DNA of 64,000 nt, from assembly GCF_053078305.1 (NCBI RefSeq), contig NZ_CP166879.1, one strand, 5' to 3'. The position numbers were made by a program. Shown one piece after another: positions 12,001 to 14,365 of the stretch (the stretch's first letter is position 1; each line of letters starts with the position of its first letter).

Positions 12001-14365
12001 TCCACGCTTCAGGCTGGCGCAGTCACCCATATCACTGAAGAGAACTACAGCATCAGCACGGGCGGGCACATGATGGTGGTTGCCGGTACCTGTGAGCGCG
12101 ACGTGGAAGGCGACACACTGGACACCGTGGGCGGCAGCCTTACCGAAAAGATTAAGGGCGTCCGTCACAGTATTGCGCAGGCGCAGAAGCTGGTTGGCGA
12201 TACGGTGAAGCTGGGAAACGAGGGCATTAATGTACTGACCATGCTGACGGACCTTGCCGATGTGGTGGAAGAGCTGGCCGATATTACGGCATCACATACC
12301 CACCCCAAAACGGGCACGTCTCCGCAGGCCGCACAGTTCAGCCAGGTCGCTCAGGAGTGCCGCCAGCTTAAAAATAAATATTCACCAATAATCGAATAAT
12401 TATTCACTTTAACAGGCCGCGCAATGTGGCCTTTTTTATTCCCGGACAATAAAAAATATTCATCACCGGACATCACCCACCACGAAAAAACCGTCCGCAG
12501 CAGAAAAAAAGATGGACGAAACGCCCCACGTAATCCCCACGTAAAACGTCGCGTAACGCCACGTAACGAAGAGATAACCCCGCCAGCCCGATTCGATCCC
12601 CTGACATCAGAAAACGATTTCTGCGCCCCAAAATCGCCGCAAATGGCCGGAAATTTTCGGGGGCGACGTAACGCGTAAAGTGACGTAATCGGCGCTACCC
12701 CGCACACGCCTCCGGTATTTGTGTACGATAAATTTTGCAAATCGAAAGGGGTGCAAAACACCCCTCCAGGGCGCGCCATTACTGAGTTTTTCCCTTCTGA
12801 ATGGTTTTGCACTTTGTGCAAGGTTTTGCAAAAGTGTGCAAAAACTCCGGCTTTCTGAGGATCCCGAAAAATTTTAATGCACTGAATAACAAGAGATTTT
12901 TAAAATTACGTCACGATCGAAGATCTGAAAAAGGATCCGACGACGAAAACGAAAAAATCAGGAAAGCCAGAACTGGCGCGGTCTGGCGGGGAGTGGCAGC
13001 AAAAATCACTTTTGCACACTTTTGCACAACTGCTCCGAAAAAGGATGGCGAAGGGGAAGGAAAACAGCCACGTCATCCGTTGCACGTAACGGACGTAAAA
13101 GGTAAATTACGCGCGGGTGCCTTTCGGCTGACGGCTGGAAGGAATACCTGAAGGCCGGATGTGAAAAGGCCCCGAGTCAACTAACGTTAACCCGAGGCCC
13201 TGACACTTCCTACCTGACAAGTGGAAGGTTAGCGCCTCCCTGTAAAAGGAGTCAAGCGCTATGCCGCAAAAAACGATCATAGTGAGCATTTTATGCATAA
13301 CTATTTTGATGATTGTCTGGATGATACACACGTCACCGTGTGAGTTCAGGCTTAACATCATGTGGTCACAATTTGCGGCGTTCTTGCAGTGTAAACAGTA
13401 AGAAACCGCAGCGGGGGTGAAAGCCCCCGCTATCCGGTTGCCGGGTTCGGTCGATATGGCACCTTTTCTCCATTGGATTACAGACGTATTTGCCCGCGAC
13501 ATGCGGGCCTTTTTGTTCAGTTGTATTTATTGTGGTCGTTACTGGCAGTGGCATTAACTGATTTTGCATGAATAGCACAAATTTTTTCCACGATAACACC
13601 ACACGCTTCAAGGTCTTCCGGGCGTGAAACCTTTATTTTTGTAATAGTCTCAGGATTATCAGCCGTTCCACTTTGCACAACCTCAATTTCAATTTTTTTT
13701 CTTGAAAGAATCATTTTCATCGCCCCGACACAGGACAGAGTAAGCCTGTGCGAAAGAATATCACCAGTGCGATAGCGTTGTCTGCTTCAACGCCAGGCAT
13801 TGCGCACACAAAGGGAAATCAGTACATTACACGCGGGTGCCTTTCGGCTGATGGCTGGAAGGATTACCTGAAGGCCGGATGTGGAAAGGCCCCGAGTCAA
13901 CTTTAATGTTAACCCGAGGCCCTGACCATCTACCCTAAGCAAGTGGAAGGTTAGCGCCTCCCTGTAAAAGGAGTCAAGCGCTATGCCGCAAAAAACGATC
14001 ATCGTGAGCATTTTATGCTTAACCATGTTGTTGACCGTCTGGATGATACACCGTTCTCCGTGTGAGTTCAGGCTTAACATCATGTGGTCAGAATTTGCGG
14101 CGTTCTTGCAGTGTAAACCGTAAGAAACCGCAGCGGGGGTGAAAGCCCCCGCTATCCGGTTGCCAAAGGTTCGGTCGAAAGTCGCACCCTCACACAAAAG
14201 TCACAAAGAAAAACAAAGCCCGCAGCGTAAAAACTGCGGGCTTTTTTGTTTCAAAGATGGACGTTATCTGGACACATGAAAATAAAAAATCTTTATTTTC
14301 AATATGTTAACCACCCACTAAAACCACCCGCAGGCGCTTTTTAGATTCAGAAAAATTAGGTATTA

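What the first reader, a model, noticed from the sequence alone, without database searches (positions are those of the whole stretch)
13517..13720. Possible 67-aa protein gene between the two hok-like units
A non-repetitive 67-codon minus-strand ORF (MKMILSRKKIEIEVVQSGTADNPETITK...) lies in the AT-rich spacer. Evidence is weak (no clear SD), but it does not look like low-complexity noise.
Basis: seen in the sequence. Interest (0 to 1): 0.2.

Follow-up and report, generated by a model that had tools for sequence, protein, structure and literature searches.

The report
Truncated prophage gene remnant between hok cassettes
The 67-codon reading frame is real, but it is most likely the left-over tail end of a 138-residue prophage gene of unknown function that lost its front half where a second hok toxin cassette was joined on, so it is an ordinary gene fragment.

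Summary
The ORF exists exactly as described: window 13517-13720, minus strand, 67 codons, 37% GC, weak SD. It lies between two real hok/sok units at the end of an E. coli prophage next to serS.

Its length alone is not significant, because 16% of shuffles give an ORF this long. Homology shows that the frame is protein-coding by descent:
- The peptide matches positions 74-122 of the 128-position profile phrog_14142 (E 1.4e-6).
- It is 97-98% identical to the C-terminal 65 residues of a 138-aa ORF. That ORF is intact, with its own SD and ATG, in related prophages that carry only one hok unit.
- A 39%-identical relative exists in one other genome.

In the window the 5' half of the gene is missing. 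All 14 window-type copies share one junction with the flank of hok unit 2.
- One copy has a frameshift inside the ORF.
- Another copy has lost the first ATG.
- No promoter was found.
- The block is present in only 6 of 5,426 complete E. coli genomes.

Best reading: a recent 5'-truncated gene remnant, already in RefSeq as "hypothetical protein". A conserved internal Met with an SD-like motif leaves some room for a translated 65-aa product. Interest is low.

The parts
13517..13720 (-). The 67-codon ORF as reported (ATG at 13720, TGA at 13519-13517).
   Evidence: The identical protein is already in public databases as a hypothetical protein (P0006).
13517..13714 (-). Conserved 65-codon core, running from the second ATG (Met74 of the 138-aa protein) to the stop. 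This is the part homologous to the C-terminus of the full-length gene and to phrog_14142 positions 74-122.
   Evidence: It is 98% identical in DNA to L007:1518-1720. Z1323 keeps only this start.
13721..13790 (-). Unique sequence upstream of the ORF, found only together with it. It may be a diverged, out-of-frame continuation of the gene (about codons 47-73: PGVEADNAIALVIFFRTG in another frame). It ends at the flank of hok unit 2.
   Evidence: This segment occurs only in the same 5 complete genomes. Similarity to KY202 DNA has shuffle p of about 0.01. Similarity to the L015 peptide has p of about 0.01. This is suggestive only.
13492..13514 (+). Intrinsic terminator hairpin plus T-run that closes hok unit 1. 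The ORF's stop codon abuts it (convergent arrangement).
   Evidence: It is also conserved in genomes without the ORF.
13102..13442 (+). hok/sok unit 1 (hok CDS 13261-13401).
   Evidence: RefSeq names it 'Hok/Gef family protein'.
13822..14164 (+). hok/sok unit 2 (hok CDS 13983-14123). Its upstream flank replaces the 5' half of the 138-aa gene.
13791..13820 (+). Promoter-like TTGCGC-17 nt-TACATT for hok unit 2, facing away from the ORF.
   Evidence: Read by eye. The scan tool did not call it.
14215..14300 (.). Hairpin (14215-14244) and the conserved prophage end (CAAAGATGGACGTTATCTGGACACAT at 14252-14277, continuing to about 14300), just before host serS (14363-15655, minus strand).
   Evidence: The same end sequence lies next to ytfP in L007.

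Best explanation
The ORF is the 3' remnant of a prophage accessory gene.

Shown: related E. coli prophages with the same tail-fibre / HP1_ORF34 / 557-aa module carry one hok/sok cassette. It is followed, on the opposite strand, by a 138-codon gene with its own SD and ATG, which is the last gene before the prophage end. That gene's product belongs to phage family phrog_14142, whose function is unknown.

Inferred: in the lineage of the window, a single rearrangement joined the upstream flank of a second hok/sok cassette to the middle of this gene. The promoter, the SD and about 73 N-terminal codons were lost.

What is left is the last 65 codons, plus about 70 nt of diverged, out-of-frame sequence upstream. 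An ATG that is Met74 of the full protein, and a second ATG two codons upstream of it, make the remnant look like a 65-67-aa gene.

The frame is still open because the event is recent, not necessarily because it is selected. Copies differ by 2.5% or less.

Most likely it has no function of its own. At most it is weakly translated from the ATG at 13714 on read-through or spurious transcripts.
For: 1. The full-length 138-aa ORF in JNEC-KY202 ends with ...EALKMILSRKKIEIEVV...NKYN, and its last 65 residues are 97% identical to the window ORF.
2. The 138-codon frame is intact in 11 of 12 sampled loci at the ytfP site. Several '73-aa' database entries are only alternative start calls on that intact frame.
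3. The window peptide aligns to phrog_14142 positions 74-122 of 128 (E 1.4e-6). The 138-aa protein aligns collinearly over 25-122 (E 8.2e-8). Family members therefore carry about 70 more N-terminal residues.
4. In the only distant relative (L015), in-frame sequence upstream of the equivalent Met is similar at protein level to residues 53-73 of the 138-aa protein (score 45 against 19 +/- 3.6 in shuffles). Coding homology therefore extends beyond the window ORF's start.
5. DNA identity to the full-length gene falls from 98% to marginal right at the ATG. All 14 window-type copies share the same junction.
6. The start codon is unstable: Z1323 has a 1-bp deletion between ATG1 and ATG2. KY174 has an A8-to-A7 frameshift inside the ORF and no CDS is annotated there.
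7. The scan found no sigma-70 promoter, and the SD is weak at -5.4 kcal/mol.
8. An AlphaFold model of the 138-aa protein puts Met74 inside a helix spanning residues 65-78, so the cut is not at a domain boundary. Confidence is low (pLDDT 62).
9. Variable sites in the 65 codons are 3 synonymous and 3 non-synonymous, which shows no clear purifying selection.
10. The ORF-bearing spacer is dispensable. 1,018 records hold hok-unit matches, but only 6 of 5,426 genomes hold the spacer. Strain 04-00955 has both hok units with only about 30 bp in its place.
Against: - The frame is open in 13 of 14 copies and occurs on several hundred draft contigs.
- Both indels lie in homopolymer runs and could be sequencing errors.
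- Met74 is preceded by a strong GGAGG in the full-length gene (-9.3 kcal/mol, stronger than the -6.4 of the annotated start). The 39%-identical relative has GAGGTGAT before the same Met and was called as a 59-aa gene. The C-terminal module might therefore be translated on its own even in intact genes.
- The N-terminal half of the 138-aa protein adds only about 4 bits to the phrog match and gives no hit on its own.
- The direction of the rearrangement (truncation, rather than extension in KY202) is inferred and was not shown by phylogeny.
Confidence: 0.62

Rival explanations
1. It is a working small-protein gene. The C-terminal 65-residue module of the phrog_14142-type protein is an independent unit, translated from the conserved internal Met (window 13714). 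It would be made from an internal start in full-length genes, and on its own in the window arrangement.
For: - An SD-like motif plus Met is conserved at the same position in three divergent contexts: GGAGG in KY202, GAGGTGAT in L015 and GGGG in the window.
- The distant relative P0016 was called as a 59-aa protein starting at this Met.
- Nearly all of the family signal lies in this segment.
- The frame is open in 13 of 14 copies.
- PGAP annotates it.
- Gene callers often prefer a short start even on the intact 138-codon frame.
Against: - No promoter was found and the SD in the window is weak.
- Residues upstream of the Met are conserved at protein level between KY202 and L015.
- The predicted helix 65-78 is cut by the truncation (low confidence).
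- One copy has a frameshift and one copy has lost the first ATG.
- The copies are too similar (97.5% or more) for intactness to indicate selection.
- The block is absent from nearly all genomes that carry the hok units.
Confidence: 0.27
2. The ORF is irrelevant, and the spacer acts as RNA belonging to the hok/sok cassettes. It could be an extended 3' end of the hok1 mRNA, or a read-through product of the antisense Sok RNA of unit 2.
For: The ORF lies between the hok1 terminator and the hok2 promoter region. Antisense (Sok) transcription of unit 2 would run towards it. This rests on the geometry only.
Against: - The hok1 terminator lies before the ORF.
- There is no Rfam match in 13515-13790.
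- The fold is no more stable than shuffles (z = -0.69).
- Hok pairs work without this spacer in 04-00955 and in most genomes.
- The sequence has clear protein-level homology.
Confidence: 0.05
3. It is a chance open frame in AT-rich non-coding DNA with no coding ancestry.
For: ORF length alone is not significant: 16% of shuffles reach 67 codons.
Against: - It matches phrog_14142 at E 1.4e-6.
- It has a 39%-identical homologue with a conserved QSGT.DNP.T...E.LE.C pattern.
- It is 97% identical to the C-terminus of a 138-aa ORF.
Confidence: 0.02

Closest known systems
138-aa hypothetical protein WP_231209984.1 of E. coli JNEC-KY202 (cluster P0001/P0004/P0009/P0011), the last gene of the related prophage next to ytfP
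   Same: The C-terminal 65 residues are 97% identical and the DNA is 98% identical. The position and orientation are the same: convergent with a hok cassette, with the stop codon abutting the same terminator hairpin.
   Different: The window copy lacks codons 1 to about 73, the SD (GGAG) and the upstream region. A second hok/sok unit sits there instead.
PHROG family phrog_14142 (phage and prophage proteins, unknown function, 128-position profile)
   Same: There is a significant profile match: E 1.4e-6 for the window peptide and 8.2e-8 for the 138-aa protein.
   Different: The window peptide covers only profile positions 74-122. No function is attached to the family. The library's member sequences could not be inspected. 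No relatives were found by tblastn in the phage GenBank collection.
P0016 / L015: a 59-aa ORF (87 aa from an upstream GTG) at the end of a Mu-like prophage (com-like zinc finger plus DNA methyltransferase) in assembly GCA_946062945.1
   Same: It is 39% identical over the whole window core. It starts at the same Met, is flanked by the same kinds of hairpins, and also lacks the N-terminal ~50 residues.
   Different: It has a much stronger SD (GAGGTGAT). There is no hok unit between the upstream hairpin and the ORF. The upstream 28 codons are in frame with it. It is a single occurrence.
Hok/Gef-Sok type I toxin-antitoxin cassettes (Pfam PF01848, Rfam RF01794). These are the neighbours of the ORF, not the ORF itself.
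   Same: The ORF is embedded between two such cassettes and travels with them.
   Different: The ORF has no similarity to Hok, Mok or Sok. It is on the opposite strand, and it is absent from most hok pairs.

Membership tests
phrog_14142 (phage protein family, unknown function) | Significant match to the family profile | tested here: met
   E 1.4e-6 and 29.3 bits for the 67-aa ORF. E 8.2e-8 and 33.2 bits for the 138-aa homologue.
phrog_14142 (phage protein family, unknown function) | Coverage of the whole profile, that is, a complete family member | tested here: not met
   The ORF aligns only to positions 74-122 of 128. The 138-aa homologue aligns to 25-122.
Independent, expressed small-protein gene | Own promoter and ribosome-binding site | tested here: not met
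   The consensus scan of 12900-14400 found no promoter. By eye there is only an 8/12 match. The SD is GGGG at -5.4 kcal/mol, against -8.2 for hok1 and -9.3 for the internal site in KY202.
Independent, expressed small-protein gene | Reading frame kept open across homologous loci beyond the neutral expectation | tested here: inconclusive
   The frame is open in 13 of 14 copies, with one frameshift (KY174) and one lost ATG1 (Z1323). The copies are 97.5% or more identical, with 3 synonymous and 3 non-synonymous variable sites, so the data have no power.
Independent, expressed small-protein gene | Evidence of translation or of a product | not testable with these tools
   No expression data were available. 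A paper search for the accession numbers and the PHROG id found nothing.
Hok/Gef type I toxin-antitoxin (flanking units) | Hok toxin ORF passing the Pfam PF01848 gathering score | tested here: met
   22.9 and 27.8 bits against a cut-off of 22. RefSeq names them 'Hok/Gef family protein'.
Hok/Gef type I toxin-antitoxin (flanking units) | Sok/leader RNA matching Rfam RF01794 at its gathering score | tested here: inconclusive
   35.8 and 49.5 bits against a gathering score of 59, with E 6e-6 and 1.5e-9 and full model length matched.
Known anti-phage defence proteins (PADLOC), Pfam, NCBIfam, PDB | Any profile or sequence match for the 67-aa or the 138-aa protein | tested here: not met
   No hits. 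Foldseek against viral structures found nothing at E of 0.001 or better.

The most novel reading that the evidence does not exclude
The 65-residue C-terminal module is a genuine stand-alone micro-protein carried at prophage ends beside hok/sok addiction cassettes. It would be translated from a conserved internal SD plus Met, so that intact 138-codon genes make two isoforms and 'truncated' loci such as this one keep only the short, functional one.
Probability: 0.2. Interest if true: 0.35.

Novelty: already known. Interest (0 to 1): 0.12.

Why it matters
It matters little beyond annotation hygiene. RefSeq carries this frame as separate 'hypothetical proteins' of 65, 67, 73 and 138 aa. All of these fall into a single 90%-identity cluster of one prophage gene. 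Recognising the short forms as 5'-truncated copies or alternative start calls avoids counting them as distinct small-protein genes.

The locus also illustrates how hok/sok cassettes are shuffled at prophage ends and can cut into neighbouring cargo genes.

If the minority reading were true (an internally initiated 65-aa product), it would add one more uncharacterised prophage micro-protein. That would be of modest interest.

Tried and rejected
- **Pfam, NCBIfam, PADLOC, PDB sequence search:** nothing for the 67-aa or the 138-aa protein.
- **Word-indexed protein search with the 67-aa query:** found nothing, because the cluster representative is the long form. The 138-aa query and the alignment query found only the E. 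coli cluster and P0016.
- **Exhaustive phmmer over 1.84 billion representatives:** only those two real relatives. P0017 and P0018 are repetitive or giant proteins, judged spurious.
- **tblastn against GenBank phages:** no match.
- **Plasmids:** a single 1-Mb E. coli replicon.
- **GTDB species representatives:** no relatives.
- **IMG/VR and metagenome scans:** one contig each, both of the window type.
- **Structure prediction:** a low-confidence model (pLDDT 62). Foldseek against viral structures gave no credible match. The AlphaFold-database library was unavailable.
- **Structured-RNA reading:** rejected (Rfam; fold z = -0.69).
- **dN/dS:** not informative, with only 6 variable sites.
- **Second match in strain Z1323:** the position of a second place matching the ORF region could not be located with the tools.
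- **Decayed codons upstream of the ORF:** the claim that 13721-13790 is decayed codons 47-73 stays only suggestive (p of about 0.01).

Full report
**Observation.**
- It is AT-rich, at 36.8% GC against 52.1% for the window.
- It has only a weak SD. A GGGG sits too close to the first ATG and 5 nt before the second ATG at 13714, pairing at -5.4 kcal/mol.
- The consensus scan found no sigma-70 promoter anywhere in 12900-14400.
- Length alone proves nothing: 16% of shuffles of the local 360 bp give an ORF at least as long.

**Setting.** The window is E. coli.
- serS (14363-15655, minus strand) and rarA follow the locus.
- Upstream lie prophage tail genes: tail fibre, tail-fibre assembly, an HP1_ORF34-like gene and a 557-aa ORF.
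- Two hok/sok units are present as 94%-identical direct repeats at 13102-13442 and 13822-14164.
- Both 46-aa Hok ORFs pass the Pfam gathering score. The Rfam sok model matches both leaders over its full length, though below its gathering score.
- Unit 1 ends in an intrinsic terminator at 13492-13514. The ORF's stop codon abuts that terminator from the other side.

**Distribution.**
- hok-unit DNA is found in 1,018 records of the 5,426 complete E. coli genomes.
- The spacer with the ORF is present in only 6 of the 5,426 genomes. It is also present in a 1-Mb replicon of strain STEC639, one IMG/VR contig and one metagenome contig.
- Strain 04-00955 has both hok units at serS with about 30 bp in place of the roughly 260-bp segment.
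- PGAP annotates the ORF as a hypothetical protein of 65 or 67 aa in four complete genomes, as 138 aa in one, and not at all in one.

**The key result.** In strain JNEC-KY202 the same DNA is the 3' end of a 138-codon ORF.
- That ORF runs MRVSPYNENES...LVLEALKMILSRKKIEIEVV...NKYN and has GGAG 7 nt upstream of its ATG.
- There the related prophage sits next to ytfP, has a single hok unit, and the 138-aa gene is the last gene before the prophage end. The same layout was seen on every contig sampled for that protein.
- Database entries of '73 aa' (MLVLEALKM...) are mostly alternative start calls on the same intact 138-codon frame. One sampled copy has a 1-bp deletion in the 5' half.
- All lengths (58-138 aa) fall into a single 90%-identity cluster of 101 sequences, all from E. 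coli.

**Family.**
- The 138-aa protein matches phrog_14142 (unknown function, 128 positions) collinearly: residues 23-124 against positions 25-122, E 8.2e-8.
- The window peptide alone matches positions 74-122, E 1.4e-6. It therefore corresponds to the C-terminal ~40% of the family profile.
- An exhaustive phmmer search of 1.84 billion representatives found only one further credible relative, P0016. P0016 is 59 aa and 39% identical, with a conserved QSGT.DNP.T / E.LE.C pattern.
- P0016 lies at the end of a Mu-like prophage, next to a com-like zinc-finger ORF and a DNA methyltransferase.
- In P0016's locus the frame continues upstream of the Met for 28 codons. Those codons resemble residues 53-73 of the 138-aa protein (score 45 against 19 +/- 3.6 in shuffles). 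Coding homology therefore reaches beyond the start of the window ORF.
- Pfam, NCBIfam, PADLOC, PDB, GenBank phages and GTDB representatives gave nothing.
- A shallow AlphaFold model (pLDDT 62) predicts a beta-alpha-beta-alpha core followed by a long C-terminal helix, with Met74 inside helix 65-78. Fold search was uninformative.

**The junction.**
- Aligned with the full-length gene, the window is 98% identical from the stop codon up to the ATG at 13714. Similarity then collapses.
- The next ~50 nt retain marginal similarity with several gaps (p of about 0.01).
- In another frame they translate to PGVEADNAIALVIFFRTG, which weakly resembles the L015 and KY202 sequences at that position (p of about 0.01).
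- This ~70-nt stretch occurs only together with the ORF. It runs directly into the promoter-like flank of hok unit 2, which I read by eye.
- All 14 window-type copies share the same junction. They were found at serS, ytfP and ihfB and inside a P2-like prophage. This points to a single event that has since spread by recombination between prophages.

**Integrity.**
- Thirteen of the 14 copies keep the 65-codon frame.
- KY174 has an A8-to-A7 frameshift, and PGAP calls no gene there.
- Z1323 has a 1-bp deletion between the two ATGs, so only the second ATG is usable.
- Both indels are in homopolymers and might be sequencing errors.
- The copies are 97.5% or more identical. Six sites vary, three synonymous and three not. 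An open frame is therefore expected without selection.

**Interpretation.** The best-supported account is a recent 5' truncation of a prophage cargo gene by the arrival of a second hok/sok cassette. The last 65 codons were left behind an in-frame Met. The homology and the junction are shown. The direction of the event and the lack of function are inferred.

**Main rival.** The main rival is that the C-terminal module is translated on its own.
- In its favour, Met74 is preceded by GGAGG in the intact gene (-9.3 kcal/mol, better than the -6.4 of the annotated start).
- The distant relative has GAGGTGAT before the same Met.
- The family signal is concentrated in this segment.
- I give this reading about one chance in four.
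- RNA-element and chance-ORF readings are essentially excluded.

**Comparison and novelty.** The exact peptide is already in public databases as a hypothetical protein. The only thing added here is its recognition as the tail of a 138-aa phrog_14142-type gene. It fails the test for a complete family member (profile coverage) and lacks clear expression signals. The finding is ordinary, and I score it low.

Noticed in passing
window 14252-14300; L007:1985-2030; L005: The same prophage end (CAAAGATGGACGTTATCTGGACACAT...TCTTTATTTTC) with the same tail-fibre / HP1_ORF34 / 557-aa module lies next to serS, ytfP or ihfB in different strains. The element therefore uses at least three chromosomal sites, each just downstream of a host gene.
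   Followed up: partly
L003, L004, L006 (2013C-3033, Bongo, JNEC-KY174): These strains carry three hok units in tandem at serS (hok - ORF - hok - hok). Strain 04-00955 carries two without the ORF spacer. Hok cassette number at this prophage end is variable.
   Followed up: no
L021:1490-2482, L022, L025, L027:12698-13894: In some window-type loci a 303-398-aa ORF with a BRCT-domain hit sits between hok unit 2 and host DNA. It is another variable cargo gene at this prophage end, of unknown role.
   Followed up: no
L015:3856-3885 and 4245-4275; window 14219-14240 and 13492-13508: The distant homologue's locus has the identical 22-nt hairpin core CCCGCAGTTTTTACGCTGCGGG upstream of its ORF, and a GCCCGCAT..GCGGGC hairpin downstream. 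These are the same two hairpins that in the window close hok unit 2 and hok unit 1. The non-coding hairpins are more conserved than the protein, which is 39% identical.
   Followed up: partly
L007:1704-1730 (minus strand), L015:3985-4003: A strong SD (GGAGG or GAGGTGAT) lies 5-7 nt before the internal Met74-equivalent codon, stronger than the SD at the annotated start of the 138-aa gene. This suggests possible internal initiation.
   Followed up: partly
NZ_CP148318.1 (strain Z1323MEC0001), position unknown: Three searches with ORF-region queries each reported a second matching place in this genome besides the serS locus. It is not the 5' half of the gene, and it could not be located.
   Followed up: partly
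window 12801-13151 (+), 13107-13502 (-), 13787-14197 (-): A 116-aa ORF upstream of hok1 is annotated as a hypothetical protein in relatives, with varying lengths (96-116 aa). Two ORFs of 131 and 136 aa lie antisense to the hok units and are unannotated in every RefSeq record inspected; I judged them likely spurious and did not test them.
   Followed up: no
window 13069-13098 and 13791-13820 (+): Promoter-like TTGCAC-17-TAAATT and TTGCGC-17-TACATT lie just upstream of the two hok mRNA leaders. The consensus scan did not report them.
   Followed up: no
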